Source: Hormiphora californensis (lineage: Eukaryota; Animalia; Ctenophora). Taken from it: DNA of 64,000 bases. The notes beneath the pieces were generated by a model that worked only from the letters and a program-made list of their open reading frames with translations, ran no database searches and had not been told where the DNA came from. Of the stretch, positions 1 to 60,737 are shown piece after piece. A program made the position numbers and the translations under genes. The stretch is taken from contig CM035358.1 in NCBI GenBank assembly GCA_020137815.1, forward strand, positions 3,906,001 through 3,970,000. The letters run 5' to 3'. Each line of letters opens with the position of its first letter. Position 1 is the stretch's first letter.

Positions 1-3000
1 CGTGTCTGCGGCGTGATAGCTCACTCAAATCATTCTGTACAGAGTCAGTGGAGTGTTGCCGTGGTCCCTGTCTTCTGAGCAGGTAAGAAAATATACAAGA
101 TGGTGTCAAAATATATCTGCTTGATAATTCTAGTTTGGGTCACATCATAATTCCACTCCAGGTGCAATACAGTTCAGATAACTAGTCCGTACAAATACAG
201 TTGCCCAGCCGGGACTGTTATCAACTCTGTCGGAAAAGCGCCAAATTCAGGTATTACAGCTGACGAGATCAAGTTATTTTGGAAAACAAAATTAAACTGA
301 ATTGTACTCGAATTTACCCGCTATATTAATTTTAAACTTTTTTGCTGCCTTTCAGTTTAGTGGCGCCGTCTTACAACGAGTTGTTTTATCGTGCTTCGCG
401 TGCGAGTTGTAAGGGTGACTGTGTCACTAACTTTTCAGTTACACTTTATTTTAACGGTGGTCCCTTTCAGAAAAAGTGGTGTCCCTCAGCTGCTGTGAGA
501 CGGATTGTAGGTTGGGTGACTGTGTAGAACGAGAGGGATCGTGTAATTCTGGGGAGGTTATGAGGAGCATCCAGAAGAACCTTGATTGTATTACTCAGCC
601 CTGTAAATTCAAGTAAGTTTTATAGACCCCCATCCCTACTAACTGTTTCAATTTGTTGTCTCACAAATTAATGGCCTCTCTGAACTCGAGCTGGGTGCCC
701 GACGTTTCAGTTGAATGTAGTATGACAAGAATTTTGTGGTATCAGCTATATCCTATCTAAAAGTATTTATCAAGAACCGACCGAATTAGGAAATACTGGT
801 CCATGATTGGCTGATAACCAGTCACGTGACATAAATAACGAGTTCTGATTGGTTGTTTACTTGTGTCGGTCGGTTCCTGGTATTTATCCTATCTCTCCTC
901 AGAGTGACATGTTGTGAAGCAAGTGATATACATGACCCCCATGTTATAAAAGATACCGTATACCCCCCACTAAAGAAACCCATCCAGGCGAATCATAACG
1001 TTGATGAAATCCACAAAGGTAAGTTGAGTCACCTGACACTGTGTCAAAAGGTAACGCTGTTCCTGTCTAGCGGCGCTAGCCCGACCTAAACGGGACCTGG
1101 CGGCGCCAGACAGAGCGGCTCAGAACTTCTCCAATGCTCCAAAACAACAGGGCATTAGGGTCACTATCAATATTCTGAATTAGAAAGACTTATTATTATG
1201 GAACCATATCTTTGTTACATCGTGCTTCTGGACATAACATTTTTTCTCCCTCGCTAACATGATTCCCTTCAGATTCTACTGCTTATAAGAAGTTCCTGGT
1301 ACCCAACAAAGAGTGTCCCTATATTGTAAGGGGTAGGGGTGTCACATGCCCTTTGTAAGTCATTTGTCAACTACCATTTCATTCCCCAAATAACCTAAAT
1401 ACTGGATACTGTACTGACTCTAGACCATTTGAATTCCTCTCAAACAGTTTACAGAGTTTGAGTTCCCCCCTCCAGGAAGTATGAGATGCGGGTGGTGCAC
1501 GCAGTAGACGACACTCTCCTAGAGGGGCAGTGCTGTACAACTGATCATGATAAGAAGTGTAACCCCCAACTAAATGGATCTTGCTCTGGTGCTATATGTA
1601 GCGCTGGTTTGGCGGGCACGGGCCTCTTCAAACTGGGATGTTTGGAGGCGGACGGTGCCCATCGGGTTAGTGTAAATAATTAGTAATCGAGTTAATTAAG
1701 AGGGTTGTTTGGGGGTGTTTTCAAATTTATTGGGTGCATGTTCTAGAGATATTCTAAATTCTCCCTAATCCCACTAGAAGGAAGAACGGTTCTGTGATGT
1801 GAGAGAGATCAGGGGAGCTGATGTCGTTTCCTGTCCCGCAGATCACACCATGACTAATATTGAGTCTAGGTAAACATCTTGCTATTCCGAATAATGAATC
1901 TTATCAATAGTATCTTCATCCAATACATTGCATTTTTGGTACTTTCTGTCATTATTTGCTGGAGATCCAACTATGCTCTTCTCGTGTAGATGTCCTGAAG
2001 GCGTCCACGAGGATTGTGTGATAGAGGTGGAGTGTTGCACGGCCAAGAAACCTGCCTTGTTCAAGATCAAACGGCATGTCTCTGCAATGGTCCACCCAGT
2101 GGCCCTCTTTGACTCTGTTCGGATCGACTGCGCTATGTAAGTGTATTCCCGTCACGCGCGCACAATATTCGATAGATGAAACCATCCCATTTCAGCAGTT
2201 ACCTGAACAGAAACGTAAACCGATTTCCCACGGTTTTGCTAAGCGCTGACAAGCGCTATTTTGCCCGACATACTATTCTGAACAAAATTCAAATTTTCCA
2301 GGTTTTCCAAAGGTATCCTCTCCTCAATTTCCCTCGGCCGCATACCAGAAGGAGTTTGTGGCCCTGCTCGATCTGGTCACTGCTACCTACACCACTCCTT
2401 CGACCTATCCACTTCCGTTTCATGTTCCCCTGGTTTTGCCTTCCAGAGTTTGAGCTTCACAGCGGACGGGCAGATAGCTAGTCCATGGGAATGTTGCGCT
2501 GTTGGAGGTGAGAAAACTCAGTTTATAACTAGTCGCATTTGATTTCTCGAAGACATGTTTACCATAAACACGGTGTTCATTTTGGATCTTTACAAGCTTT
2601 GGGCTTCACCCAGAAAAAATTTGACAAAATAAGCTTACGAAACTTCAAACTTCATACTTGGACTATTATACCGTGTTTTTCGGTCTCAAAATTTTGAAAA
2701 AGTTGCTAAAAAGACTCAAAAATGTCAATTTTTGCCGTTTTTGAGCCTTTCCAGGCAGTTTATTTGGAGTTTTGAGACCGAAAAACACATCCAATTACCA
2801 CGAAACTTTGGATTAGATGCCAAAAACACGCTTTCAGTGGTATTAGAGCTCCGGAAACACCAGCAACCTTGAATGAGGGTATATAATAATCCAAGTATGA
2901 AGTTTCGTAAGCTTATCTTGTCATTTTTTTCTGGTTGAAGCCCAACGCTTATAAAGATCCAAAATGAACATCCTGTATAAAGTCCAATTTTTTATTTAAG

Positions 3001-6000
3001 CGACAGGCCGCCGTGCATCAAAATGCAGCACTTGAAATCTATTTCCAGTTCCTGATAAGATAGAGACATGTCATTGGTCGAATTGAAAAGATAAAATTTT
3101 TCTCTTTCCAACGCAACCAGGATCATGTCTTTAATTTATCTTATCAGGAACCGGAGATTGAATGTGCGGCGGCATGTCTCTTAAATAAAAAATTCGACTA
3201 TAATTAATTGCCTGTCTGACGGCACCGATCCGATCAGGGCTTACTGTTTGAGAATAAAAAAAAAGACAAAAAAAATTAGGTCGGACCCCCCCCCCCCCGT
3301 CTGGTTCCGCCACACAGTGTTTACATTTGCCCATCCCACTTTAACCCCTATTCTCCTTCTACAGGTCACGAGCTGATAGAATCGACCACAGTCGACGGGA
3401 TGAACACAGCTGACTGCGTGGCAGGGTACATGAGTGCACTGAGGGTCGACACTTCACAGTCGGATGTCAAAATGGAGGCCACATGTGTCCACCCCAAGGA
3501 AAGTATACCCTCCGAGGAAGATGGAGATTGGGAAGATGAAGGGGATGGGGAGGAGAAGAAAGACGAAAAGAAGGACAAGAAAAAAGACAAGAAGAAGAAC
3601 AAAAAGAAAAACAAGAAAGACAAGAAGAAGGACAAAAAGAAGAAGAAGAAAGACAAGAAGAATGAGGACAATGAGAAGGTTGAACCTAAGGGATGTTTCT
3701 TAAAGGGGATAGCACTTGTTGGGGGAGATATTGGCCAGGTCCGATCTGTCCTTTCTCTTGATTCCTGTTCCAAGGCTTGTTGTAAACATCACGAGTGTAC
3801 TGCCTTTACCTACGTCAAATCAGAAACGCAGTGCCTGTTGAAGAACGAAAAGGCTATTATTGGTCGAAAACCTGCCCCAGACTGCTATACATCATGGCTC
3901 AAGAGTTGTGGGAAATATGATAGAGAGAACAGGGGCTTTCCCTGGGCTAGTAAAAAGAAGAAATCATCCAAAAAGAGTGATAAGAAAAGACCCAAGTCTT
4001 CGAAGAAGAAAGATAAGAAGCAGGTTAAATCTTCTGATAAGGCTGAGAAAAAAGGAAAAAAGAAGCCCAAATCTTCGAAGAAGAAAGAGAAGAAGCAGGT
4101 TAAATCTTCCGAAAAATCGGAATGTTCGAAGAAGAAGTGCGAGAAAGCTGTGAAGTCTTCTGATAAGGCTGAGAAAAAAGGAAAAAAGAAGCCCAAATCT
4201 TCAAAGAAGAAAGAGAAAAAACAGGTTAAATCTTCCGAAAAATCGGAATGTTCGAAGAAGAAGTGCGAGAAAGCTGTGAAATCTTCTGATAAGACTGAGA
4301 AAAAAGGAAAAAAGAAGCCCAAATCTTCAAAGAAGAACGAGAAGAAACAGGTTAAATCTTCCGAAAAATCGGAATGTTCGAAAAAGAAGGGCAAGAAAAC
4401 TGTGAAATCTTCCGAAAAGGCTGAGAAAAAAGGAAAAAAGAAGCCTAAATCTTCGAAGAAGAAAGAGAAGAAGCAGGTTAAATCTTCCGAAAAGGCTGGC
4501 AAAAAAGGAAAAAAGAAGTCCAAATCTTCAAAGAAGAAAGAGAAGAAACAGTTGAAATCTTCCAAAAAGGGTGGCAAAAAAGGAAAAAAGAGGTCCAAAG
4601 TTTTGCAGATGGGTGGCCCATCCCATCACATAAAGAAGACATGCGTATATTTCGGTGGAGTATTTCCGGATGGAACCCTTGCCCGATTCTCTACGGATAA
4701 CGCCATGGCATGCACTGAAATCTGTCATCAGACCAAAGGATGTGTTACAAGTTCATTTGTATCTTCAGAAAGAGATTGTTTCCTCAAGGGACCCTCCCAC
4801 GGTTCATTTGTCAAGACCTCCTGGGCTGTAGATAACAGAGTTATTTCGTACAGTGTTAAGGACGGATGTGTTGGTGATTCTAACGGATTCCGGCAACGTA
4901 AAGAGGGGCCAGACGGAAAGCTAGTTGAACCGTGTTTCTACAAAGGGTCTGTGTTTGAGGGTACTGAGGTGGCTGAACCCACCAATACTAGCCTGGCAGC
5001 GTGTTTGGAAATGTGTAGACAGCACGAGAAGTGTAGTGTTGGCAACTTTGTCAGCGGAACCTGTACCCTGTTTGACAATGCTCATAAGCCTCTGAAGGAC
5101 GGAAATAATGAGAGTGACGCCTCCTTCGATCTTATTGGACCATGCTTTGACAGCCTAGTAGTTGATATATCTTCCTTGCAGAAAAGGGTCAAGAAAAGAA
5201 GTAAACGGATGAAGCCAATGAAACCATGTGTACACAAGGGAGCCTTGATACCAGGAGGAGATAGCAAGTTTGTGGAGACTCCCGACGCCACCACTTGTAA
5301 GGAAGTTTGTCTGGAAAACTCAGGTTGTTTTGCAGCAACCTTTATGGCAAAAACGAAGGCATGCTACATGAAACAGGCAGGTCACCGATCAGTCTCAAAA
5401 ACTGAATGGGCGATCAAGAATGAGGTAACTTCATTTGAGTTCTCTGGAGATTGTTCTGATCCGAAACTTGAAGTGTCAATCAAGAAGCCTCCTAAAAAGA
5501 CACCGAAAAAGAAGGCTGTGAAGAAGACGTCCCCGAAGAATCCTAACAAGATAGCAGCAGATTTTAAGCAGAAGAGTCCTTGTTTTTACAAAGGTGCGTT
5601 GATACCGGGCGGTCATCTAGAGGAGGTAAAAACTAAGGATCTAGATCTTTGTGTAGAGATTTGCAAAGATACCCCGGCTTGTTTTGCTGCCACTCTCAAC
5701 GGAGAATCGGAGACCTGCTACTTGAAGGGCAAAAACGTGGAACCCCTTACATTTGCGCCTTGGGGAGAAAGAAACAAAGTCACGTCAATTTCCTGGCTTG
5801 AAAAGTGTGGAAAAGTACGAAATGAACGAATCCGAAGAAGGGTGAAAGGAAAGAAACGGAAGAAATCTCGTAAGAAGAAACCTGTGCAACGTCCGAAGAA
5901 GGTGGAGAAAAAACCTGTGCAACGTCCGAAGAAGGTGGAGAAAAAACCTGTGCAACGTCCGAAAAAGGTGGAGAAAAAACCTCTGCAACGTCCGAAGAAG

Positions 6001-9000
6001 GTAGAGAAAAAACCTGTGCAACGTCCGAAGAAGGTGGAGAAAAAACCTGTGCAACGTCGGAAGAAGGTGGAGAAAAAACCTGTGCAACGTCGGAAGAAGG
6101 TGAACAAAAAACCTGTGAAAATTTCGAAGAAAGGAGGAAAAAAGAAGCTGAAATCTTCGAAGAAGGGCAAGAAAAACGCTGATAAGAAAGGAAAAAAGAA
6201 GCAGCTCAAATCATCTAAAAAGGGAGGAAAAAAGAAGCTGAAATCCTCCAAGAAGAAGGGAAAGAAAAAGGCTGGCAAGAAAGGAAAAGAGAAGAAGCTC
6301 AAATCGTCCAAGAAGGGAGGAAAAAAGAAGCTGAAATCCTCCAAGAAGAAGGGGAAGAAACAAGGCTCCCTCGCCGTGTCATCCTCCAATGAAGGAGGAG
6401 ATAATTGGAAATCTAAAATAGTGGTATCAATGATAAAAGAGTGTCGATACGAGAATACTGTCTTCAAGGGTACCCCGTTCAAGGAAGAAACTACTGCATC
6501 TGTTTCTGAGTGCCAGGGCAAGTGTATCAACACCCGGATCTGTAACTCGCTTACATTTATACTGGATAGTAAGAAGTGCCAGATGTTCAGCGTAGAGAAC
6601 GCCCAACCAATATCAACGGATATTAAGGGTACACCTCGGCAAAATTTTTGTCGAGTGCCCGCTTAGCTCTTCATATGGGGTTGTAGGGCATGCAAAGCCG
6701 ACCTCAAATATGCAATTTTAGCCCTTAACTCGAATTCATATTTTTGCTACAGCCCCTCAAAGTTGGACCCTAAATACCGGTTTTTAAGGTCCCTAAATTT
6801 TATTCTTAGGGCTAGAAAGCTGAAAATTTGGGGATTTATAGAGGATACCAAGGTGTATCAGCTCAAACAGAAATTTTTGAAATGGAGCTTAATTTTTTGT
6901 CTGAGACTATTTTACTTTTTTTGACTTTGAGGCCATATTTGGACATGTTCCTATGGACCGTTAAGGCTTAAAATCGGATATTTGGTGCTCCTAACAATTG
7001 TCAAAGTAGCCACAAATTTTCAGGAGGTCCGAATTTGAAATGTGGCCTACAGGTTTCTTTTTGTAAAGCACATATTTTAGGAAAACTTAAAATGGCTATA
7101 TCTCAAAAACGGTAGGTCCTAGCGATATAATTTCGTGCTAAATCGATTCAGCGGGTCCGATTTTGGGGGGGTCGTCTATTAGACATTTTGCTCTAAGTCT
7201 AACCGTTTTTTCAGAAATCGTATTTTAAGATTTGTACATGTTTAGCAGAAATGCTTCTAGCTAGAGCTAATCTTACCTATTTCTGCTAAACATGTACAAA
7301 TCTTAAAATACGATTTCTGAAAAAACGGTTAGACTTAGAGCAAAATGTCTAATAGACGACCCCCCCAAAATCGGACCCGCTGAATCGATTTAGCACGAAA
7401 TTATATCGCTAGGACCTACCGTTTTTGAGATATAGCCATTTTAAGTTTTCCTAAAATATGTGCTTTACAAAAAGAAACCTGTAGGCCACATTTCAAATTC
7501 GGACCTCCTGAAAATTTGTGGCTACTTTGACAATTGTTAGGAGCACCAAATATCCGATTTTAAGCCTTAACGGTCCATAGGAACATGTCCAAATATGGCC
7601 TCAAAGTCAAAAAAAGTAAAATAGTCTCAGACAAAAAATTGAGCTCCATTTCAAAAATTTCTGTTTGAGCTGATGCACCTTGGTATCCTCTATAAATCCC
7701 CAAATTTTCAGCTTTCTAGCCCTAAGAATAAAATTTAGGGACCTAAAAAACCGGTTTTTAGGGTCCAACTTTGAGGGGCTGTAGCAAAAATATGAATTCG
7801 AGATAAGGGCTAAAATTGCATATTTGAGGTCGGCTTTGCATGCCCAACAACCCCATATGAAGAGCTAAGCGGGCACTCGACAAAAATTTCGCCGAGGTGT
7901 ACCCTTAAGACTATTTCAGTGGATCTGAATTGCGATCCAAATGTCCACAAGACCTTCTTGGAGCAATCTTCTAAAGAGGTTGAAAGAAAGATGCAACTCA
8001 AATCGTCCAAGAAGGGAGGAAAAAAGAAGCCGAAATCCTCGAAAAAAGGGAAGAAAAAGGCTGGCAAGAAAGGAAAAAAGAACAAGCTCAAATCGTCGAA
8101 GAAGGGAGGAAAAAAGAAGCCGAAATCCTCGAAGAAGGGGAAGAAAAAGGCTGGCAAGAAAGGAAAAAAGAACAAGCTCAAATCGTCCAAGAAGGGAGGA
8201 AAAAAGAAGCCGAAATCCTCGAAAAAGGGGAAGAAAAAGGCTGGCAAAAAAGTAAAAAAGAACGAGCTCAAGTCGTCCAAGAAGGGAGGAAAAAAGAAGG
8301 TGAAATCTTCGAAAAAGAAAGGCAAGAAAAAGGCTGGCAAGAAAGGAAAAAAGAAGAAGCTCAAATCGTCCAAGAAGGGAGGGAAAAAGAAGCTGAAATC
8401 CTCCAAGAAGAAGGGGAAGAAACAAGGCTCCCTCGCCGTGTCATCTTCTAAGGAAGGAGAAGATAATTGGAAATCTAAAATAGTGGTGTCAATGATAAAA
8501 GAGTGTCGATACGAGAATACTGTCTTCAAGGGTACTCCGTTCAAGGAAGAAACTACTGCATCTGTTTCTGAATGCCAGGGCAAGTGTATCAACACCCGGA
8601 TTTGTAACTCGCTTACATTTGTACTGGATAGTAAGAAGTGCCAGATGTTCAGTGTAGAGAACGCCCAACCAATATCAACGGATATTAAGACTATTTCAGT
8701 GGATCTGAATTGCGATCCAAATGTCCACAAGACCTTCGTGGAGCAATCTTCTAAAGAGGTTGAAAGAAAGATGCAACTCAAATCGTCGAAGAAGGGAGGA
8801 AAAAAGAAGCCGAAATCCTCGAAGAAGGGGAAGAAAAAGGCTGGCAAGAAAGGAAAAAAGAACAAGCTCAAATCGTCCAAGAAGGGAGGAAAAAAGAAGC
8901 CGAAATCTTCGAAGAAGGGGAAGAAAAAGGCTGGCAAGAAAGGAAAAAAGAACAAGCTCAAATCGTCCAAGAAGGGAGGAAAAAAGAAGCCGAAATCCTC

Positions 9001-12000
9001 GAAGAAGGGGAAGAAAAAGGCTGGCAAGAAAGGAAAAAAGAACAAGCTCAAATCGTCCAAGAAGGGAGGAAAAAAGAAGCCGAAATCCTCGAAGAAGGGG
9101 AAGAAAAAGGCTGACAAGAAAGTAAAAAAGAACAAGCTCAAATCATCCAAGAAGGGTGAAAAAAAGAAGCCGAAATCCTCAAAGAAGGGGAAGAACAAGG
9201 CTGGCACGAAAGGAAAAAAGAACAAGCTCAAATCGTCCAAGAAGGGTGAAAAAAAGAAGCCGAAATCCTCGAAGAAGGGGAAGAAAAAGGCCGGCAACAA
9301 AGGAAAAAAGAACAAGCTCAAATCGTCCAAGAAGGGAGGAAAAAAGAAGCCGAAATCCTCGAAGAAGGGGAAGAAAAAGGCTGGCAAGAAAGGAAAAAAG
9401 AACAAGCTCAAATCATCCAAGAAGGGAGGAAAAATGAAGGTGAAATCCTCTAAGAAGAAAGGCAAGAAAAAGGCTGGCAAGAAAGGAAAAAAGAAGAAGC
9501 TCAAATCGTCCAAGAACGGAGGAAAAAAGAAGGTGAAATCTTCGAAAAAGAAAGGCAAGAAAAAGGCTGGCAAGAAAGGAAAAAAGAAGAAGCTCAAATC
9601 GTCCAAGAAGGGAGGAAAAAAGAAGGTGAAATCCTCTAAGAAGAAAGGCAAGAAAAAGGCTGGCAAGAAAGGAAAAAAGAAGAAGCTCAAATCGTCCAAG
9701 AAGGGAGGAACAAAGAAGCTGAAATCCTCTAAGAAGAAGGGGAAGAAAAAGGCCGGCAACAAAGGAAAAAATAACAAGCTCAAATCATCCAAGAAGGGAG
9801 GAAAAAAGAAGGTGAAATCCTCTAAGAAGAAAGGCAAGAAAAAGGCTGGCAAGAAAGGAAAAAAGAAGAAGCTCAAATCGTCCAAGAAGGGAGGAAAAAA
9901 GAAGCTGAAATCCTCCAAGAAGAAGGGGAAGAAACAAGGCTCCCTCGCCGTGTCATCCTCCAATGAAGGAGGAGATAATTGGAAATCTAAAATAGTGGTA
10001 TCAATGATAAAAGAGTGTCGATACGAGAATACTGTCTTCAAGGGTACCCCGTTCAAGGAAGAAACTACTGCATCTGTTTCTGAGTGCCAGGGCAAGTGTA
10101 TCAACACCCGGATCTGTAACTCGCTTACATTTATACTGGATAGTAAGAAGTGCCAGATGTTCAGCGTAGAGAACGCCCAACCAATATCAACGGATATTAA
10201 GACTATTTCAGTGGATCTGAATTGCGATCCAAATGTCCACAAGACCTTCTTGGAGCAATCTTCTAAAGAGGTTGAAAGAAAGATGCAACTCAAATCGTCC
10301 AAGAAGGGAGGAAAAAAGAAGCCGAAATCCTCGAAAAAAGGGAAGAAAAAGGCTGGCAAGAAAGGAAAAAAGAACAAGCTCAAATCGTCGAAGAAGGGAG
10401 GAAAAAAGAAGCCGAAATCCTCGAAGAAGGGGAAGAAAAAGGCTGGCAAGAAAGGAAAAAAGAACAAGCTCAAATCGTCCAAGAAGGGAGGAAAAAAGAA
10501 GCCGAAATCCTCGAAAAAGGGGAAGAAAAAGGCTGGCAAAAAAGTAAAAAAGAACGAGCTCAAGTCGTCCAAGAAGGGAGGAAAAAAGAAGGTGAAATCT
10601 TCGAAAAAGAAAGGCAAGAAAAAGGCTGGCAAGAAAGGAAAAAAGAAGAAGCTCAAATCGTCCAAGAAGGGAGGGAAAAAGAAGCTGAAATCCTCCAAGA
10701 AGAAGGGGAAGAAACAAGGCTCCCTCGCCGTGTCATCTTCTAAGGAAGGAGAAGATAATTGGAAATCTAAAATAGTGGTGTCAATGATAAAAGAGTGTCG
10801 ATACGAGAATACTGTCTTCAAGGGTACTCCGTTCAAGGAAGAAACTACTGCATCTGTTTCTGAATGCCAGGGCAAGTGTATCAACACCCGGATTTGTAAC
10901 TCGCTTACATTTGTACTGGATAGTAAGAAGTGCCAGATGTTCAGTGTAGAGAACGCCCAACCAATATCAACGGATATTAAGACTATTTCAGTGGATCTGA
11001 ATTGCGATCCAAATGTCCACAAGACCTTCGTGGAGCAATCTTCTAAAGAGGTTGAAAGAAAGATGCAACTCAAATCGTCGAAGAAGGGAGGAAAAAAGAA
11101 GCCGAAATCCTCGAAGAAGGGGAAGAAAAAGGCTGGCAAGAAAGGAAAAAAGAACAAGCTCAAATCGTCCAAGAAGGGAGGAAAAAAGAAGCCGAAATCT
11201 TCGAAGAAGGGGAAGAAAAAGGCTGGCAAGAAAGGAAAAAAGAACAAGCTCAAATCGTCCAAGAAGGGAGGAAAAAAGAAGCCGAAATCCTCGAAGAAGG
11301 GGAAGAAAAAGGCTGGCAAGAAAGGAAAAAAGAACAAGCTCAAATCGTCCAAGAAGGGAGGAAAAAAGAAGCCGAAATCCTCGAAGAAGGGGAAGAAAAA
11401 GGCTGACAAGAAAGTAAAAAAGAACAAGCTCAAATCATCCAAGAAGGGTGAAAAAAAGAAGCCGAAATCCTCAAAGAAGGGGAAGAACAAGGCTGGCACG
11501 AAAGGAAAAAAGAACAAGCTCAAATCGTCCAAGAAGGGTGAAAAAAAGAAGCCGAAATCCTCGAAGAAGGGGAAGAAAAAGGCCGGCAACAAAGGAAAAA
11601 AGAACAAGCTCAAATCGTCCAAGAAGGGAGGAAAAAAGAAGCCGAAATCCTCGAAGAAGGGGAAGAAAAAGGCTGGCAAGAAAGGAAAAAAGAACAAGCT
11701 CAAATCATCCAAGAAGGGAGGAAAAATGAAGGTGAAATCCTCTAAGAAGAAAGGCAAGAAAAAGGCTGGCAAGAAAGGAAAAAAGAAGAAGCTCAAATCG
11801 TCCAAGAACGGAGGAAAAAAGAAGGTGAAATCTTCGAAAAAGAAAGGCAAGAAAAAGGCTGGCAAGAAAGGAAAAAAGAAGAAGCTCAAATCGTCCAAGA
11901 AGGGAGGAAAAAAGAAGGTGAAATCCTCTAAGAAGAAAGGCAAGAAAAAGGCTGGCAAGAAAGGAAAAAAGAAGAAGCTCAAATCGTCCAAGAAGGGAGG

Positions 12001-15000
12001 AACAAAGAAGCTGAAATCCTCTAAGAAGAAGGGGAAGAAAAAGGCCGGCAACAAAGGAAAAAATAACAAGCTCAAATCATCCAAGAAGGGAGGAAAAAAG
12101 AAGGTGAAATCCTCTAAGAAGAAAGGCAAGAAAAAGGCTGGCAAGAAAGGAAAAAAGAAGAAGCTCAAATCGTCCAAGAAGGGAGGAAAAAAGAAGGTGA
12201 AATCTTCGAAAAAGAAAGGCAAGAAAAAGGCTGGCAAGAAAGGAAAAAAGAAGAAGCTCAAATCGTCCAAGAAGGGAGGAAAAAAGAAGCTCAAATCCTC
12301 CAAGAAGAAGGGGAAGAAAAAGGCGTCCCTCGCTATTTCATCTTCTAAGGAAGAAGAAGATAACTGGAAATCTAAAACAATGTTATCAATGACAAAGGAG
12401 TGTCGATACGAGAATACTGTCTTCAAGGGTACCCCATTCAAGGAACTGACTACTGCATCTGCTATTGAGTGTGAGGATGAGTGTATCAATACCCGGATTT
12501 GTAACTCGCTTACATTTGTACGGGATGATATGAATTGCAGGATGTTCAGTTTACAGACTGCTAAACCCATCTCAACGGATATCGAAACGGTTTCAGTGGA
12601 TCTGAATTGCGATCCCAATGTCCGCAGGACCTTCTTGGAGAGACTCTCGCAACAGAAAAACAAACGGACAACTGGGGAAGCGTGTAGGATGGATGGAAAA
12701 AGGCTGGAGGGAGGAACGATTGCTGTGTTAAAGAAGTCGACTGCAGCAAGTTGTATAGAATCATGTAAGTTCAGGCGTGAGTGTACCGCCGTTACGTTTG
12801 AGGATGTTTCCCGGACTTGTTTCCTAAAATCCTCAAAACACCTGGGACCTTATGAATGACGATACTGGACTTGGGGTCATCTCTATCGATCTTGCACACG
12901 ACTGTTCAGTAACTAGAAAGGTGCACACCCGGGCTGTTGGAGCCAACTGTGATTACCCGGGGATGACATTCCCATCCTGGAAGGATTCTCCGAATTACAG
13001 TCGCTGCAGATGCAGCTGAATGTGGAGAGTTTTGTGCCCAGACGGAAGAGTGTAAAGCAGTGACGTTCCTGTCGGTGTACGGAAAGTGTCTGCTCAGGGA
13101 TGGGAATCACTGGTGATCCAATTGTTGACAAACACGGAACAAACCTGGGCGTCAGGTCCATCGAACTAAACTGCCGGCCAAAATCAAACAAGGAAACAGC
13201 AAAAGAGCTTACTCTAACCCTTGATAAGGTGGACCTATCAGTCCATACTGCAACTGAGATATCTGACAATGACCCTTGCCTCCATCCCGGAACATCGTTC
13301 TCGGGTGGTGTTTTAGAGACCCTCGTTGGGATCACAACTCGTAGCGAGTGTGTGTCACACTGTATAGCTAACCATCAATGTGTTGCGGTGACCCTCTCTC
13401 CCGGGATTCAGCGGTGTTTCCTACATAACTCAGCCAGCACTGGACCAATCGCATCCGACTACGCCAAGGAGAAGGAAATCCAATCGTACGATCTGAGATG
13501 CAGTAAGCCTGAAGTTTCCTTGGAGCCATGTACCTATGATAGACAGGTTTTTGAAGGAGGGCTACTGGAGACTGTAACTGATATTTACTCCGCAAGACTT
13601 TGTTTAGAAGAGTGTTACCATGATACAACTTGTGTCTATGCTACATATGAACCATTCACCCTAAACTGCCTTCTGAGGTCCGGTGATGCTACTGGTCCGG
13701 TATATTCTGGGACCACGGACAGGGTCACCTCCTTCAAGCTCCACTGTGAGCAGATCCAGGGTAAGAAACCAGAGGAGGGATGTGTAAAGGTGGGAATGAA
13801 GGCCCAGGATGGTATCTTGGCTGAACAGAAGGGGGTTGAGAGTGAGGATTTGTGCTTTGAGGAGTGCTTCCAGAGTGAGAAGTGTGTGGTTGCTACCTAT
13901 AATGGGGATAACAAGACTTGTACCCTCGGTGATTCATCTCACAAACTCGTACCAGCTGAATTCCAGAACACCCTCTCATTTGATTTCACATGTTCCAAAG
14001 GTGGGAAAGAGAGTCAGGAAGAAGCTGTAACAACAACAACCACACCAGATTCTCTAGAGACCAAACCTCGTTGTGATGTTGCAGGTAGTGCATTTAAGGG
14101 CGGTTTAGTCAAGACGCACCCTGACACAGACTCTATTTCTGCATGTGCAGTTCTATGTGACAAAGAACCATGGTGTGTGGCGGCCAACTTCAACAAGAAC
14201 AAACGGACATGTTCCCTCCGAAATAACAAGGCTATGGGACCCATACAAACACCATGGACATTGTTTAGTGAAATGGTTGCAGTGAATTACCGGTGTGAGG
14301 GTAGCAGGATTTGGAAACAAAACACACCTTGTGAACTCAAGGGATCTACTTATACTGGAGGTCTTATCGAGGCTAGAGATGGTATCTACAGCGGTAAACA
14401 GTGCTCTGATGCCTGCCTGATGTCTGATTTGTGTGTAGCTGCTACATTCTCACCCGCCCTACAAAGATGTTCCCTAAGGAATGGGTATAAGCACCAACCA
14501 AAACACTCCCAGAGGAGGGGGTAGTCTCATACGATTTCCTCTGCTCCAAACCCAAGCCAACAAAAGTGATCCATCATTCAGCCTGTAAACTGGAGAACCA
14601 TCTTCTAACTGGTCCCTACATGACATCTCTAGGAGGGGTAACTTCTGACATTGCGTGTGGTAAAGCGTGCTCTGATACAGCAGACTGTATTGCAGCTTCC
14701 TACATTGCCGGCACACAAAAGTGCTTCCTGAGGAACGAAATTGGAAAGGGTGTGAGGAATGAGTGGACCGCGGAACACAAATCTGTAACTATTGATCTAA
14801 CCTGCAAGATAAAAGCACCTAAACCAGCACCAGCTCACACAGTCAAGGTGAAGGGAGGGAAATGCAGAGAGGACTATGCCTTTTTCCCAAAGGGCACTCT
14901 GAAAACGCTGGAAAATGTGAAATCAATAACTGAATGTGTAAGCTACTGCCACGCTGAGGAAGCCTGTAAGGCTGTTACATTTGTGGTGGTAGAGGGATCT

Positions 15001-16046
15001 TGTTTGTTAAAGACTGCTGAACACTTGTCAGCTGTATCAACTCCTTGGACACGACATGCTGGTGTATTCTCCTTTGAGCTGGATTCATGCTCAGAGGGAG
15101 AAATAGTTATCCCACCAAATGCACCCAGTAAGTTTCAATCGGTATCTTTCATTGTTTGTTTGTTTGTTTGTTTGTTTGTTTGTTTGTTTGTTTGTTTGTT
15201 TGTTTGTTTGTTTGTATCTCACCATGCTTTTGGGCACGTTGTCCCCCACTGTGATCGTGTGCTCTCATCCATGACTTCTCATTCATTGATTCACTAATTT
15301 CCTACCCCATCTTGTCAGAGAGAGAACACAAAAGAAAAAGATCGCCTCCGGTAGAACAAGGGGGATGCTACGGGAAAACCATTGACATAGCAACAAACAA
15401 AACACATCGTATTGACTGTGGCGGCAGGTAATTTTCAAATCTCTCATCTTTTTGGGGAGAAAATTTTAACATTTTATGGATTTTTGACATGTTCCTAACA
15501 CTCCATTTCAGCGAGATGGTGATGAAATCGGTACAGCTGGTTGGTGATGAGATCAAGTTGGAATGTTGTGCAACTAAACCAGGCAATGTCACTACCTCAA
15601 CATCCTGTCCAGAGGGAACACTCCTTCTCCGTCAACTTAATGTACACCCCAGTGGAAGGTACGAGACCTCTTAGTTTCCTTCCTTAGTTTCTCTGACACC
15701 CTGTTTCTCTAATCGTGCTTATAATTTAGGCTATAGCTGACATAGACTGCTATATTTGCTACTTATTATAATTATACTGAGACACAGACTAATCCCAAAA
15801 CTAACGATCTACTATTTCAGACACGAGACACAGACTAATCCCAAAACTAACGATCTACTGCCCTACTTCAGATCACTAACAAGATGTTTGGACCCTGCTA
15901 GGAGGATATTCCAACTTCCCGCGCTGTGCTGGGTGGAGCCATTTGTAGTGGGATACGCAGATTGTGGAAGCACGGGGGCATTCAATGAGATACCTGCAGT
16001 AGGGGAGAAAGAGTGGAGATATGGAATATGTTCCTTCCTTGTGTAG
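1..16046 (+). CDS. Giant multi-exon gene (5' end outside window): Cys-rich dermatopontin-like repeats, ~19 PAN/apple domains and Lys-rich KSSK repeat linkers; probably extracellular
   Basis: GT-AG exons at about <1-82, 162-250, 471-612, 904-1018, 1274-1331, 1476-1666, 1778-1869, 1991-2136 and 2302-2507, a giant coding block 3365-15127 (ORFs 3400-6666, 7919-12859, 13100-14524, 14566-15297), then about 15319-15427, 15512-15658 and 15872-16046 (stop). Recurrent PAN pattern C-x(15-25)-C-x3-C-x5-C-x-A-x-T-F-x(4-6)-C-x-L-K. Apparent 1-2 bp frameshifts near 12855, 12970, 13110 and 14520. Confidence 0.85.
771..879. mobile_element. 109-bp hAT-type MITE (copy 1)
   Basis: TIRs CA(A/G)GAACCGAC...GTCGGTTCCTG; 8-bp TSD GTATTTAT on both sides. 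Confidence 0.9.
2569..2975. mobile_element. Diverged Tc1/mariner-type MITE with ~100-bp TIRs
   Basis: Left end CACGGTGTTCATTTTGGATCTT... matches the reverse complement of right end ...AAGATCCAAAATGAACATCCTG|TA; nested internal inverted repeat. Confidence 0.65.
3000..3180. mobile_element. TTAA-flanked hairpin MITE (Kolobok-like)
   Basis: TTAA|GCGACAGGCCGCCG...CGGCGGCATGTCTC|TTAA with internal inverted arms (GTTCCTGATAAGATA / TATCTTATCAGGAAC). Confidence 0.6.
5881..6110 (+). repeat. Coding 33-bp tandem repeat (PVQRPKKVEKK, ~7 copies)
   Basis: Repeated cctgtgcaacgtccgaagaaggtggagaaaaaa. Confidence 0.95.
6627..7904. mobile_element. 1278-bp palindromic non-autonomous DNA transposon (Kolobok-type, GG..CC ends, TTAA TSD) inside a coding exon
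   Basis: TTAA at 6623-6626 and 7905-7908; near-perfect arms 6627-7252 and 7279-7904 with a 26-bp spacer; the empty site GATATTAAGACTATTTCAG occurs in paralogous repeats at ~8681, ~10193 and ~10973. Confidence 0.92.
7909..12320 (+). repeat. Hierarchical coding tandem repeat: 90/93-bp KSSKKGGKKK units nested in a 2292-bp duplication
   Basis: Identical ORF pairs offset by 2292 bp (7941/10233, 8721/11013, 9156/11448); 90-bp period (aacaagctca at 8081 and 8171). Confidence 0.95.
15153..15213. repeat. (GTTT)n microsatellite, intronic
   Basis: Direct reading. Confidence 0.95.
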
Positions 16047-19435: not shown

Positions 19436-19502
19436 GATTCTGAAAATCGGGATTTAGTTTGATTTTAATAAAAGGACAGTTATTAACAAAACAGAGGTAT
19501 TA

Positions 19503-20705
19503 CAGGGTGTCCCACTGTCTTTGCGTGACCTGCGATTACTGGTTATGACCGGGTTCCGTCAAATTAATCAAAACTCATCGAAAAATTGGTCAAAATGGTT
19601 CTAACAAAAACCAGTGTTCTAGAGAATTGTCTGGCGAACATTTTGGTTGCAAGATTGACATTCCAAGTCATACCAATCGTCAGATACATCGTCGTAAAGT
19701 CAAAATTACGTGTTCAAGAAATCCGACCGGGGTTCACGTTTTGAAAAATTCACAAATGCAAAGTTGCTCGGATCACATTGCATCCCTCATAAGAGTTGTG
19801 CGAAATTGTCTGGCGGTCATTTTGGTGCCCGGGTTTTTGTCCTAGCTCAATGTTTAGAGTGTCTTATGACTGTCTAAAGACGAAATTCAACCAGCATTTT
19901 TGAGGGGATCACGTGTCATCAACAAATGGGTGAAATGATTTGAAATTTACAAGAGCTTCATTGGAATCGTCTAAGGTTCATTTTGATACCATGGTTTTTT
20001 CCGTAGCTCTACGTTTAAGTTGCGTTATGACTGAAGGAACATGAAGATTTTTCTATGCTGAGTCTTAGTTGGTATCGGCTCACAACCCCTAATTAGGTGG
20101 CTCGGTGTCGTGTGTAATCCCATGATAATCAGCACATATCGTCTCAATTTCATCTAGACACTTGACAGGGTTGTTATGACGATTTGGCAAGGCCCCTGTT
20201 AATGTGTAGGATACGGAAGTTGTCTATCTCAACCCTACCATGCACTAAGATGCTATTCAAGCAGCTATGAGCTTCATAACAGGGCAAAATGCAATGCGAT
20301 ACCTGAGACCACTTTTGGGAAAATTCCAGTTCTGACAGTCATAAGACACTCTAAACATTGAGCTAGGATAAAAACCCGGGTACCAAAATGACCGCCAGAC
20401 AATTTCCTACAACTCTTATGAGGAATGCAATGTGATCCGAGCAACTTTGCATTTGTGAATTTTTCAAAACGTGAACCCCGGTCGGATTTCATGAACACGT
20501 AATTTTGACTTTACGACGATATATCTGACGATTGGTAAGACTTGGAAAGTCAATCTTGCAACCAAAATGTTCGCCAGACAATTTTCTAGAACACTGGTTT
20601 TTGTTATAACCATTTTGACCAATTTTTCGATGAGTTTTGGTTAGTTTAATGGAGCCCGGTCATAACCCAAAATCGCAGGTCACGCAAAGACAGTGGGACA
20701 CCCTG
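19503..20705. mobile_element. 1203-bp non-autonomous Tc1/mariner-type element with ~370-bp TIRs
   Basis: TA|CAGGGTGTCCCACTGTCTTTGCGTGACC...GGTCACGCAAAGACAGTGGGACACCCTG|TA; arms about 19503-19875 and 20333-20705. Confidence 0.9.
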
Positions 20706-21039
20706 TACTACACACAATAGCATATTGGGGGGCATATTGTTTACAAAAGCTCACAAGGAACAATCATCTGCTGCCACGAAATAAAACTTGAGAATAATAG
20801 CCAGAAATGATACGACAGCACTAAGATTTAACAAAGAAAGAGGGTGATAACGTAGACCAGCAATATGACAGCTGTGCCAGGCGTCAGAGAAGGGTTGCTA
20901 TGGGAACAAAGTAGCGTTAACCAGGCTACCAATTGGCCAATTTGAGAGTAAACCACCTGGTAGGTAGTACTTTCGTCATTCTTACTTTCTCTCTCTCTCA
21001 GCTGCTCTCGCGAGCAGCTCATCTATAGAAGATAAAGCT

Positions 21040-32218: not shown

Positions 32219-35213
32219 ATGATTTCTTTTGTTTTAGCACTGCTCCTCGGACCAGTGGTCCATGGAAGGGTCTCCCTTAGTGGGGTCAATGTGGATTCTC
32301 CAAGGGATGTGGCTCAACTTTACAGGGCCTACACTGCACAGTACAGGGCTGACCATCGTTTAATGGGATCTGCTGAACAGAGGACGAGATTTAATATGTT
32401 CAGGTAAACACATCTTAAGATGTGAATTCTAACTTAAATAAAGTTGTATCAGATACAAACAATTATATCTTTTCAAACAGTTGATAATTATTCAATGGAG
32501 GTCAAACTATTAATTTAGGTTCTGATATAATCCACTCCCAGGCAGTCTCTCAAGTTTGTGGAGAGTCAAAACCAGGCTGGTCTCACCTGGAGGAGCGGAC
32601 TCAACAGGTAAGACAAGGGACTTGAACGGGATTACAAAATGTTACAAAGATCAAGCTTGTGTTGTTCATTTAATATCTTGTATCAGCAAACATTGCTGAC
32701 AATTGACATATTATTGTGTTCTAAGGTTCAGTGATATGTCTGAGGAGGAAACGAGGTCATTCGAGGGTGTCAACATGACCCAAGTACCCCTTGAGAGTAG
32801 TGTTGTGGACAGTGGACTGAAGGGATCTTATCAGTAAGTGCAGGCCATACCACCCCTTTGTACGAGGTCTCCTATCACCTCCTCGTTAAACATTTTCCCT
32901 ATCATGGTCCATTGTTACGGTAACAAATAACGCCGAAATGTAGCGAATTTTCGACCGCACACGCCTTATTCACAGCACTTGAAAACATATCGGCTCCGGG
33001 TTGTTACGTTGCCTTCTTTATTCTTAACTTTCCTAACCCCGTTGCTCCAGGTACCCTGATTCTAAAATGTGGCTTGACAGTGTCTTCGACCCAATGGACC
33101 AAGGGAACTGCGGGTCTTGCTGGATTTTCGGATCTCTCACCGCCATTGAGGGACGGTAAGTGGTCTGCTGTTTCGCAGTACTTTTACTACTGAGGGTCCC
33201 CTACTGATTCCCCTTCTTGGTTGCAGGTATCACCAGTTGACGGGAAAGCTAAAGAGATTCTCACAGCAACAGATGCTGGACTGTGTATTCGCGTGGAGAG
33301 ATGACAAGGGTTGTGGGGGTAAGTAGATTGTGGTAACCCGCCCGCCATTAGCAGGGACCCTGCGTTAAGTTGTACAAATAAGTTGTTATGTCTGAATAAA
33401 CATGATTTACTAAAACCAACCTAGGTGGAGCAAACTACTGTACATACAACTACATAGCCAAGGGTAACCCCCTGATAACGACATCTAAATACCCCAAGTA
33501 TGTGGCCAAGGAAGGGGCCTGTAAACAGGACAGGTATCCAGATGGACTTCAGGCTGCGAAAATTACAGGTAAGTTTGTTTTTAGGTCAAGGTCCAGTTTA
33601 CTAATTGAGAAATGAGACAGGGTTAGGTATGATAGCCATTATCCTGTAGCCATGCGTCCAAAAAGTACATTCTGGGTCCCATTTCACGTTTTCTACTATT
33701 GTATCTGACCTTACCTCTGCTTAATTTCTCTCTTTATCAAGTTCCGCCTCTTGCATGATCACAGCTCTCTCTCTCCTTCCATAGTACGGATTGTTTGCTT
33801 GTTAGGAAGCTAGCGTACAGTGCAGCAGCAGCACAAAGATCACTTCTGTGTGACGTAACACGCATATAGAGTGACGTCATAGTTAAAACATTGTGACGTC
33901 ATACGGTATTGTCATGAATGAGTTCTAATTAGGATTAGATATAATTGGTATTGGATGAAAATATCACCATGACTTAATGAGACTTCACGGGTACATGAAA
34001 GGATTCCCTCTTCTTCTCCAGGTTACGTTAACACCCACCCCTCTTCTTGCCCAGGTTACGTTAACACCCACCCCTCTTCTTCCCCAGGTTACGTTAACAC
34101 CCACCCCTCTTCTTCCCCAGGTTACGTTAACACCCACCCCTCTTCTTCCCCAGGTTACGTTAACACCCACTCCTCTTCTTCCCCAGGTTACGTTAACACC
34201 CACCCCTCTTCTTCCCCAGGTTACGTTAACACCCATCCCTCTTCTTCTCTAGATTACGTTAACACCCATCCCTCTTCTTCCCTAGGTTACGTTAACACCC
34301 ATCCCTCTTCGTCCCCAGGTTACGTTAACACCCATCCCTCTGAGGAGGGTCTACTGGTGGCACTATCCCAAGGAGTTACCGCTGTCAGTTTCCAGACTAC
34401 CCCTGCTTTCAGAGCCTACGAGAGCGGGGTTATCAGGTATAAACACTAACCGCGATAGATTAATGCATCAATCTATCTCTGTCTAGTGTGCGCCAGACCC
34501 GTTCTACCGTACCATCTTTTAACACGTGCACACGATAGAAAGAGAGGACAATGTCCTCAACGTGGGGTCCAAGAAACACACACGCCAGATCACCGCTCCC
34601 AACCAGCTCGATCGGCTCTCACACTCGATCTCTATCTCTCTCCTCCTCTCCTCTCTCTATCGCTCTCCTCTCCTCTCTCTCCTCTCTCTCTCTATCTCTC
34701 TCTCCCTCTCTCTCTTCTCTCTCTCTCTCTCTCTCCCTCACTCTCTCCCTCTCTCTCTCACCCTCTCTCTCTCTCTCCCACCAGGGATGAGACGTGTTCA
34801 CTGACGGCAACAACCCACGCTGTGGCAGCTGTCGGATACTCCCCCGCCTACATCCTTGTCAAGAATTCCTGGGGTCAGGATTGGGGGGAGAACGGGTTTG
34901 TGAAGTTTAGCAGGAAACACCATGGCTGCCTTCTCCACTCTAAACCCATATACCCAGTTATGAAGAAGACAGGAGCAAGGGATAGTGATGCCAGTGAGAG
35001 AGCTACCTCGTATAAGCCGAGTGATGAAAGGGATGCTGTGGAAACACCATGTAAGATAAGCACCCCAGTTGGTTTTGTAACAGAGGCACGTGCGGTACCT
35101 GGAAGAATGCTGTGAATTGTGCCAAGACGTGTGGGAGGTGTAGCCAGGATTCTGGATCTTGCCCCACTGGGGAGGTGATGTGTGCCAGTGCCACTTGCAA
35201 GAAATCCTGCTAA
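32219..35213 (+). CDS. Papain-family (C1A) cathepsin-like cysteine protease with signal peptide, I29 prodomain and C-terminal ShKT domain
   Basis: Exons about 32219-32403, 32542-32607, 32726-32833, 33051-33155, 33227-33318, 33425-33568, 34319-34436 and 34785-35213; ERFNIN-like E...RFNMF and GLNRFSDM; QGNCGSCW, catalytic H (THAVAAVGY) and N (KNSWG); the ShKT part needs one extra base at ~35055. Confidence 0.92.
34006..34340 (+). repeat. 33-bp tandem repeat (x10) spanning an intron/exon boundary
   Basis: Unit ccctcttcttccccAG|gttacgttaacaccca; AG ends at 34021+33n up to 34318. Confidence 0.95.
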
Positions 35214-35673: not shown

Positions 35674-36683
35674 GGGGATTTTAGTAAAAAAAGGGCCAAG
35701 TTTTCAGCAAAATTTTTAACAAGCTAATTTCTTCACCAATAGGTCCGGATAGGTGTCTAGTATCACCAAAAAAAAGTACACGATAATCGGAAGTGCGCAC
35801 ACGCGCTGAGCGCGCAAGAAGTAAACACATGTAAATACATGTATTTCTAGCCTGGCACGAAAACCCAAAAACCATCTTAGGAGACGAGTAGAGAACAAAT
35901 CAAGGGCACTAGATTGTGTAGCGTCCTCGCATTAGTGGGGGTAGGTGCTGGAATTAAGTCTCTATCTCATCTGGTTAATTAGATAATTGGATAATTAGAT
36001 ATGCGCATAACCGTATTTTGGCTATATGGCTATAGCCACTTAGGAATGGTTTAGAGACTTTTCATTGGTGCCATTTTGTTCAGAAAAAAATTTCAATTTA
36101 AGAGTTGTGGAAAAATTTAGAGCCTATCTCCTACCGTTTTGGCGTTATTTGCGGTCAAAGTATGCCAAATCAGCCGAAAATGCCAAAAAATTAGTTAATT
36201 GGCCTTCTTTGACTGCAAATTACGCCAAAACGGTAAGAGATAGGCTCTAAATTTTTCCACAACTCTTAGATTGAAATTTTTTTCTGAACAAAATGGCACC
36301 AATGAAAAGTCTCTAAACCATTCCTAAGTGGCTATAGCCATATAGCCAAAATACGGTTATGCGCATATCTAATTATCCAATTATCTAATTAACCAGATGA
36401 GATAGAGACTTAATTCCAGCACCTACCCCCACTAATGCGAGGACGCTACACAATCTAGTGCCCTTGATTTTTTCTCTACTCGTCTCCTAAGATGGTTTTT
36501 GGGTTTTCGTGCCAGGCTAGAAATACATGTATTTACATGTGTTTACTTCTTGCGCGTTCAGCGCGTGTGCGCACTTCCGATTATCGTGTACTTTTTTTTG
36601 GTGATACTAGACACCTATCCGGACCTATTGGTGAAGAAATTAGCTTGTTAAAAATTTTGCTGAAAAAATATACTAAAATTCCC
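35674..36683. mobile_element. ~1010-bp foldback element, PIF/Harbinger-type (GGG ends, TAA TSD)
   Basis: TAA|GGGGATTTTAGTA...TACTAAAATTCCC|TAA; near-identical arms about 35700-36160 and 36207-36666; mirror ORFs 35681-35875 and 36492-36686. Confidence 0.85.
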
Positions 36684-39483: not shown

Positions 39484-57723
<18,240 letters not shown>

Positions 57724-59396: not shown

Positions 59397-60737
59397 CACG
59401 GCGTGCCTGGTGAAATTTTAACACGACCTAGCATGCAACGGGAAACCACCACTTGTACGTGGTAGCTGAGGGTCTACAGAATGGCGCTACGGTGCGGGAA
59501 AAAACATTCCATTCCCTAAAATCTTTTTTTTTACTTTTATTTGATTTGGGTCAAAATTGGCTATATTAAACGTGGTCCCGAAAAATCCATAATGACTTAG
59601 CACACGAAATATGTCACCCCCACCTATTTGTGCACGTAGAATCGATTGCCGTTGAAGTCGAATCTCTAAAATGACTGTAAAATGGTCAAAAATTGATTTT
59701 TTACCATTTTTTGGAGGTTTTTGGCCCCTAAACCATTAAAAACGTTGAGATAGGAATTTGAAACTAGTGCCAATCGTTAAAATGGTCATTTTTCTACCAA
59801 GAACCAAGTTTTCGTGTATATCCGATTTATGGTTAAATTTGGGCAAATTGTTGAAATCTGCCAACTAGGAGAACCGTAACTTGATTTTCTTGTTTTTTGG
59901 ATTTTGGCATTTTCGACAAACTTCTGATTGAAATGGTCAATCGGGACCATGCTTAAGTTGTTTATGGGACAATTTTCGACTAAAATCCAAGATTTCATAC
60001 CAATCCAATAACAGATCGTTGGTTTATAGAAAATTTAAGTAGGCAAAACGGTCAAAATGACAACTTTTCTTGCTTATTTTCACCGTTTTGCCTACTTAAA
60101 TTTTCTATAAACCAACGATCTGTTATTGGATTGGTATGAAATCTTGGATTTTAGTCGAAAATTGTCCCATAAACAACTTAAGCATGGTCCCGATTGACCA
60201 TTTCAATCAGAAGTTTGTCGAAAATGCCAAAATCCAAAAAACAAGAAAATCAAGTTACGGTTCTCCTAGTTGGCAGATTTCAACAATTTGCCCAAATTTA
60301 ACCATAAATCGGATATACACGAAAACTTGGTTCTTGGTAGAAAAATGACCATTTTAACGATTGGCACTAGTTTCAAATTCCTATCTCAACGTTTTCAATG
60401 GTTTAGGGGCCAAAAACCTCCAAAAAATGGTAAAAAATCAATTTTTGACCATTTTACAGTCATTTTAGAGATTCGACTTCAACGGCAATCGATTCTACGT
60501 GCACAAATAGGTGGGGGTGACATATTTCGTGTGCTAAGTCATTATGGATTTTTCGGGACCACGTTTAATATAGCCAATTTTGACCCAAATCAAATAAAAG
60601 TAAAAAAAAAGATTTTAGGGAATGGAATGTTTTTTCCCGCACCGTAGCGCCATTCTGTAGACCCTCAGCTACCACGTACAAGTGGTGGTTTCCCGTTGCA
60701 TGCTAGGTCGTGTTAAAATTTCACCAGGCACGCCGTG
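59397..60737. mobile_element. 1341-bp foldback element, Chapaev-type (CACGG..CCGTG ends, 4-bp TSD)
   Basis: AGGA|CACGGCGTGCC...GGCACGCCGTG|AGGA; near-identical arms about 59397-60052 and 60082-60737 (identical mirror ORFs). Confidence 0.88.

What the first reader, a model, noticed from the sequence alone, without database searches (positions are those of the whole stretch)
6623..7919. Palindromic TTAA transposon in a coding exon that may be spliced out in frame (introner-like new intron)
Seen: the element splits a PAN domain at ...GAT ATT AAG|ACT ATT TCA GTG, while sister repeats keep the empty site. Its left TIR supplies a GT at 6629 (AAGG|GTACAC). The first downstream AG (7908-7909, a weaker AAG) would frameshift. 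The exonic CTATTTCAG ending at 7919 instead gives a 1291-nt intron that restores the frame (STDIK-VDLNC, losing only TIS). The 626-bp arms would fold into a hairpin that juxtaposes the two splice sites. Established: DNA transposons can create introns (introners); TTAA TSD with purine termini fits Kolobok. Inference: this is intron gain in progress that rescues a gene otherwise truncated at 6666.
Basis: partly seen in the sequence, partly recalled or inferred. Interest (0 to 1): 0.85.

Follow-up and report, generated by a model that had tools for sequence, protein, structure and literature searches.

The report
Young hairpin transposon interrupting an exon
A 1.3-kb palindromic jumping element sits inside a protein-coding exon; it likely just damages this gene copy, and its proposed clean removal as a new intron is untested and predicted to be inefficient.

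Summary
The sequence observation holds. A 1278-bp foldback element (6627-7904) with 626-bp arms, a TTAA duplication and GG...CC ends splits a PAN domain. Three sister repeats keep the empty site, and a 6629-7919 splice would be in frame. The family is very abundant in public contigs of the same species label and fits a non-autonomous Kolobok-like element. The host gene looks alive: four downstream frameshifts are absent from the public contigs that cover them, and a relative's poly-A contig is spliced.

The intron reading is unshown, and the sequence leans against it. The donor matches 4 of 9 U1 positions against 6-9 in 14 of 14 host donors. There is no branch-like motif, while 13 of 13 host acceptors have one. 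The hairpin is predicted to bury both donor and branch zone. In its favour, the TTTCAG acceptor is good, exposed and in frame (chance 3-8%). No RNA of the insertion allele was available.

Most likely this is a very recent damaging insertion. If the element is removed from RNA, imprecise hairpin-triggered SOS-type excision fits better than a GT-AG intron.

The parts
6623..6626 (+). left TTAA target-site duplication
   Evidence: empty sister sites carry one TTAA
6627..7252 (+). left arm (626 bp) of the foldback element, 5' end GG
7253..7278 (.). 26-nt spacer (predicted hairpin loop)
7279..7904 (+). right arm (626 bp), 7 mismatches to the left arm, 3' end CC
7905..7908 (+). right TTAA target-site duplication
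6629..6630 (+). proposed donor GT (AGG|GTACAC), weak, predicted paired in the stem
6664..6666 (+). premature TAG reached if the element is retained
7908..7909 (+). proximal AAG acceptor candidate, out of frame (net +1)
   Evidence: the host uses an AAG acceptor at 32725
7918..7919 (+). exonic TTTCAG acceptor candidate, in frame (net -9), predicted exposed
6569..6570 (+). alternative exonic donor ATA|GTAAGA outside the stem; in frame with 7919 (net -69, removes 23 residues including a PAN cysteine)
3365..15127 (+). long host exon: multi-PAN-domain, lysine-rich repeat protein
   Evidence: 3' border shown by RNA contig X20 record 8; 5' border chosen by eye
9864..12196 (+). tandem duplicate identical to 6290-6626 plus 7909-9904 but lacking the element (empty site at 10197)
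   Evidence: 333 nt identical to the left, 2000 nt to the right
12855..14509 (+). four 1-nt frameshifts (12855/57, 12976/78, 13110, 14507/09), most likely assembly consensus errors

Best explanation
A non-coding foldback DNA element with Kolobok-like ends sits at a duplicated TTAA inside a coding exon; it likely arrived very recently and likely acts as a damaging insertion rather than a new intron. Shown: the insertion anatomy, the abundance of the family, the empty sister sites, and an otherwise open, spliced host gene in other samples. Inferred: a transposase encoded elsewhere moved it. Transcripts of this allele are predicted to fold a 626-bp duplex that hides the weak donor and the branch zone, so most would keep the element, stop at 6666 and be lost to nonsense-mediated decay or dsRNA surveillance. 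The in-frame GT-AG pair is likely a coincidence of the family's fixed terminus with an exonic TTTCAG that predates the insertion.
For: Donor AGG|GTACAC matches 4 of 9 U1 positions. The 14 of 14 valid host donors score 6-9: 7 from a cathepsin model that aligns to homologues across all junctions, 1 RNA-supported, 6 chosen by eye; 2 mis-indexed rows were dropped. 84 of 169 GTs in the same exon score 4 or more. A YTNAY at -45..-12 is present in 13 of 13 host acceptors (P = 0.012 against shuffles) and absent for both 7909 and 7919; the nearest is at 7673. Mean unpaired probability is 0.00 for the donor and 0.04 for -40..-15; burying a branch point inhibits splicing (PMC2275289, abstract). The TTTCAG lies in the empty sister repeats too, and a relative's poly-A contig reads through an empty site that has no AG there (X20 record 9). 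Recency: the flanks equal the empty duplicate over 333 + 2000 nt. Family abundance: 5754 contigs laid in X1, 809 in X5. At 1291 nt it is about twice the longest median introner family length, 654 nt (PMC9860276).
Against: No RNA of the insertion allele was examined, so retention or decay is not shown either. The acceptor is host-like, 75% unpaired and in frame; chance for an in-frame YAG this close is 8.4%, and 2.8% with a short pyrimidine run. 57% of all YAGs in the window also lack YTNAY (739 of 1722 have it), so that absence is modest evidence. The nascent 5' end alone leaves part of the donor open in one of two short folds, so U1 could bind before the right arm is made. Exonic DNA transposons are removed from 90-100% of mRNAs in C. 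elegans (PMC12779559), so 'null allele' may overstate the damage. The host sample is small and partly chosen by eye.
Confidence: 0.55

Rival explanations
1. Hairpin-triggered, spliceosome-independent excision (SOS-splicing-like). The paired arms would be cut out of the mRNA at several sites near their ends and the fragments ligated, giving a mix of in-frame and out-of-frame products and partial rescue.
For: SOS splicing is triggered by pairing of inverted repeats regardless of their sequence, acts on exonic elements including non-autonomous ones, and rarely uses GU-AG (PMC12779559). This element is an exonic, near-perfect 626-bp duplex.
Against: [quoted passage not shown] There is no RNA of the allele. 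Behaviour on arms this long was not seen in the sections read.
Confidence: 0.27
2. One reading: the spliceosome removes 6629-7919 as a new 1291-nt intron, restoring the frame with loss of three residues.
For: The frame is restored. The acceptor is good and exposed. Introners that carry a donor, take an acceptor from exon sequence and change codon number are described (PMC9860276). The host gene is live, so rescue would matter.
Against: The donor is weak and buried, there is no branch motif, and a competing proximal AAG is of a type the host uses at 32725. 73 in-frame GT-AG pairs exist around the element, so an in-frame pair alone says little.
Confidence: 0.1
3. The spliceosome uses the upstream exonic donor at 6569, outside the stem, with 7919. 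This removes the element plus 23 residues and keeps the frame at the cost of one PAN domain out of many.
For: GTAAGA matches the host intron-side consensus, scores 5 of 9, is in frame and is partly unpaired, 0.27.
Against: It has the same branch-point problem. The same pair exists 69 nt apart in the empty copies, and the relative's RNA contig crosses it unspliced (that relative lacks the AG).
Confidence: 0.04
4. Assembly effect: the element belongs to one haplotype, and the identical empty duplicate at 10197 is the other haplotype laid in tandem, or the junction is misassembled.
For: The window looks like a collapsed consensus of two haplotypes. PAN depth in X5 is only about 1.5-2 times single-copy depth, though the tool warns that depth is no copy number.
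Against: An exact TTAA duplication at a site that is single in the sisters is hard to get by misassembly. Haplotypes differ by several percent in unique coding DNA (8 of 124 nt in X3), whereas the duplicate is identical over 2333 nt. A false duplication would leave the insertion real and heterozygous.
Confidence: 0.04

Closest known systems
Non-autonomous Kolobok elements (such as Xenopus T2-MITE)
   Same: TTAA duplication, 5'-RR...YY-3' termini, terminal inverted repeats, no transposase (PMC9587614; PMC6004289).
   Different: Arms make up 98% of the element. No autonomous partner was found or testable, so the assignment rests on ends alone.
SOS splicing substrates (exonic Tc1, Tc3, Tc4, Tc5A-derived repeats)
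   Same: An exonic DNA transposon whose inverted repeats are predicted to pair in the mRNA.
   Different: No excision shown here; other lineage and superfamily; the factors were not checked.
Introners (MITE-derived introns; donor-carrying and codon-changing families)
   Same: TIR and TSD element in an exon, donor from the element, acceptor from host exon, codon change possible (PMC9860276).
   Different: One exonic copy known, no splicing evidence, weak buried signals, 1291 nt against family medians of 30-654 nt.
piggyBac non-autonomous elements
   Same: TTAA duplication.
   Different: Termini here are GG...CC, the Kolobok pattern that PMC9587614 sets against piggyBac.

Membership tests
Kolobok superfamily | TTAA 4-bp target-site duplication | tested here: met
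   other insertion flanks also begin at 6623 in X1, X5 and X20 loose ends
Kolobok superfamily | 5'-RR ... YY-3' termini with terminal inverted repeats | tested here: met
   GG...CC, 626-bp arms; criterion from PMC9587614
Kolobok superfamily | DDE transposase in the element or an autonomous partner with the same ends | not testable with these tools
   longest stop-free frame in the element is 85 aa; no genome held; collection scans gave 2 chance 18-mer hits and 0
MITE / non-autonomous DNA transposon | multi-copy, non-coding, TIR and TSD | tested here: met
   5754 contigs laid in X1, 809 in X5, 81 in X4; 1 copy in the window
piggyBac | termini other than RR...YY (CC...GG, recalled) | tested here: not met
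   ends are GG...CC
Introner | removed from mRNA by the spliceosome | not testable with these tools
   no RNA run of the insertion allele; the one RNA run laid (X20) is a diverged relative
Introner | host-like donor, branch point and acceptor | tested here: not met
   acceptor met; donor 4 of 9 against 6-9 in 14 of 14 host donors; no YTNAY against 13 of 13; small host set
Introner | several family copies forming introns in unrelated genes | not testable with these tools
   no genome or annotation
SOS splicing substrate | exonic inverted repeats able to pair | tested here: met
   predicted fold
SOS splicing substrate | imprecise non-GU-AG excision depending on AKAP17A, CAAP1 and RTCB | not testable with these tools
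   no carrier RNA, no genome

The most novel reading that the evidence does not exclude
Transcripts of this allele are repaired in frame, by the spliceosome at 6629-7919 or by SOS-type excision of a 626-bp perfect hairpin. A Kolobok-like foldback family with many copies would then be tolerated in exons of a marine invertebrate and caught in the act of seeding an intron.
Probability: 0.2. Interest if true: 0.72.

Novelty: new member of a known kind. Interest (0 to 1): 0.3.

Why it matters
As it most likely stands, it is an ordinary young transposon insertion. It is still a clean natural test case: the same gene carries filled and empty copies of the same site, so one RT-PCR from a carrier separates retention, a precise GT-AG intron and imprecise SOS-type excision. 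A positive result would extend RNA-level transposon removal, or intron gain, to a lineage and a superfamily where the papers read here do not report it. Kolobok and TTAA do not occur in the main text of PMC12130899, nor TTAA in PMC9860276; their supplements were not seen.

Tried and rejected
Pseudogene reading: four downstream frameshifts suggested a dead gene. The public contigs covering them show the compensating 1-nt change: 12855/57 in X3, X4, X5; 12976/78 in X3, X5, X20; 13110 in X5 only; 14507/09 in X3, X4, X5 (X20's contig ends at 14509). At two sites the runs drop alternative neighbouring letters, as if both alleles of a SNP had been written side by side. Rejected.

Junction search in contigs: in X1, X4 and X5 the depth of bin 6580-6609 is fully explained without an extra contig starting near 6598, so no insertion-junction or spliced-junction contig was kept. 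Contigs drop such branches and empty-site contigs can come from sister copies, so this shows neither absence nor polymorphism.

X4 as carrier RNA: it crosses the 15128 donor unspliced, so it was treated as DNA.

Runs: 5 of 22 listed runs were laid (X1, X3, X4, X5, X20). X18 (RNA) and X22 (RNA by guess, 0.00 share) were not. Only the left half of the element was laid, so the tool's joint table could not report 6628-7920.

Other searches: metagenome and viral scans for the terminus gave 2 hits with no similarity beyond 18 nt, and 0. Homologue searches gave unnamed proteins only, so the taxon is not established; my guess of a comb jelly comes from no call, and the two paper searches built on it gave nothing on this element. 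Three look-ups in earlier findings were empty. The translations were in the wrong frame and were redone.

Full report
Observation. The element spans 6627-7904 (1278 bp) between TTAA at 6623-6626 and 7905-7908. Its arms are 626 bp with 7 mismatches around a 26-nt spacer. The terminal 18-mer occurs twice in the window against 0.03 expected. It interrupts a PAN_1 domain of a long exon encoding many PAN domains and lysine-rich repeats. Empty versions of the site lie at 8685, 10197 and 10977. Retention stops at TAG 6664-6666, a 6629-7909 splice is net +1, and a 6629-7919 splice is net -9 with an open frame.

What the element is. The longest stop-free frame is 85 aa. TTAA duplication with RR...YY ends is the Kolobok signature, set against piggyBac in PMC9587614 (passages) and used for T2-MITEs in PMC6004289 (passages). 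No autonomous partner could be sought, as no genome is held. Laying the left half on public contigs gave 5754 records in X1, 809 in X5 and 81 in X4, with other flanks beginning at 6623. It is therefore an abundant family, though the tool's depths are no copy number. At 10 sites more than 85% of X1 depth carries another letter than the window, and at 9 of them both arms of this copy agree. This points to a minor subfamily or to arm homogenisation (inference). Long foldbacks are common here: three more, unrelated in sequence, lie at 19497-20711, 35701-36666 and 59397-60737.

Age and host gene. The flanks are identical to an empty tandem duplicate over 333 nt to the left and 2000 nt to the right, while two haplotypes in X3 differ at 8 of 124 coding positions. 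The insertion is therefore likely very young, unless the duplicate is an assembly effect. Four downstream frameshifts are corrected in the contigs that cover them; 13110 is covered by X5 only. At two of them different runs drop alternative neighbouring letters, the mark of a collapsed heterozygous consensus (inference). A poly-A contig of a diverged relative (X20) joins 15127 to the exon after 15318, so the gene is expressed and spliced there. These runs may include the window's own source and are not counted as independent individuals.

Is it an intron? No RNA of the insertion allele was available: 2 of 22 listed runs are on record as RNA, each holding 0.06 of the words, and one was laid. X20 record 9 reads through an empty site, differs at 14 of 255 letters and lacks the AG at the proposed acceptor. 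No junction contig of either kind can be inferred in X1, X4 or X5, which proves nothing because contigs drop branches.

I therefore compared signals with host introns: 7 from a cathepsin model that aligns to P0007 over aa 1-351 across all junctions, 1 RNA-supported, and the rest chosen by eye. The donor AGG|GTACAC matches 4 of 9 positions of the recalled U1 consensus; 14 of 14 host donors match 6-9, with two mis-indexed rows dropped. Of 169 exonic GTs in the same exon, 84 score 4 or more. A YTNAY at -45..-12 is found in 13 of 13 host acceptors (shuffled mean 9.5, P = 0.012) but for neither candidate acceptor. Since 739 of 1722 YAGs in the window have one, this is modest evidence. In the folded transcript the donor is 0.00 and the -40..-15 zone 0.04 unpaired, while the TTTCAG stretch is 0.75 unpaired. 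The hairpin thus hides rather than presents two of three signals, and burying a branch point inhibits splicing (PMC2275289, abstract).

The acceptor is a somewhat lucky one. But 73 in-frame GT-AG pairs surround the element, the host does use an AAG acceptor (32725), and the donor at 6569 is at least as good as that at 6629.

Mechanism. Most likely (0.55) the allele's transcripts keep the element, meet the stop at 6666 upstream of later introns and are degraded or held as long dsRNA; these steps are inferred from general knowledge. The main rival (0.27) is SOS splicing: pairing of inverted repeats triggers efficient but imprecise, mostly non-GU-AG excision of exonic DNA transposons in C. elegans and human cells (PMC12779559: abstract, passages, Main parts 2 and 3 of 4, Discussion). 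That paper also notes that recent exonic insertions are rare and probably purged despite such repair. The precise spliceosomal intron gets 0.10, the 6569 donor 0.04 and an assembly effect 0.04.

Comparison and novelty. Introners that carry a donor, borrow an exonic acceptor and alter codon number are known, with family median lengths of 30-654 nt (PMC9860276, passages; PMC11282704, passages; PMC12130899, passages). Even if spliced, this would be a new case of a known kind; membership fails on signals and is untested on RNA and multiplicity. Paper searches were made; none of the listings describes this family, and supplements were not seen. The host is a marine eukaryote, probably an invertebrate animal (inference; no call names it).

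Verdict: a real, very young Kolobok-like foldback insertion in a live gene; intron gain unshown and unlikely; a good natural test for RNA-level transposon excision. Interest 0.3.

Noticed in passing
window 12855-14509: Four 1-nt frameshifts look like consensus errors, two of them at heterozygous SNPs with both alleles written side by side; other frameshifts in this assembly should be distrusted.
   Followed up: yes
window 6290-12196: A 2292-nt coding unit is duplicated in tandem with no difference over 2333 nt; a very young duplication or a haplotype artefact.
   Followed up: partly
window 59397-60737, 35701-36666, 19497-20711, about 39947-41345, 2565-3202: Further long inverted-repeat elements of unrelated sequence; the first has 662-bp arms at 100% complementarity; the last lies in the intron before the long exon.
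   Followed up: partly
X20 record 12 (laid on window 6623-6655): An RNA contig appears to hold a mini copy of about 37 bp with the same termini and TTAA on both sides, in a diverged relative; single contig of depth 2.
   Followed up: no
window 32219-35118: Papain-family cathepsin gene with 7 introns; the intron from 33569 holds a tandem array of about 33-nt copies of the acceptor plus exon start (about 34010-34320), offering many alternative acceptors; one intron ends in AAG.
   Followed up: partly
window 47383-56352: Two reverse-transcriptase ORFs (913 and 1233 aa, the second with an endonuclease domain) and a 681-aa ORF with a weak GDSL-like match below the Pfam cut-off: LINE-like elements in tandem.
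   Followed up: no
window 6569-6626 with 7909-7919, and sister copies: The empty PAN repeats hold a 69-nt, stop-free GTAAGA...TTTCAG stretch, a multiple of three and close to the shortest host intron seen (71 nt): a possible cryptic exonic intron.
   Followed up: partly
window 3365-15127: Very long exon encoding a protein of PAN domains alternating with lysine/serine/glycine repeats; only one distant full-length relative was found, unnamed (P0001).
   Followed up: partly
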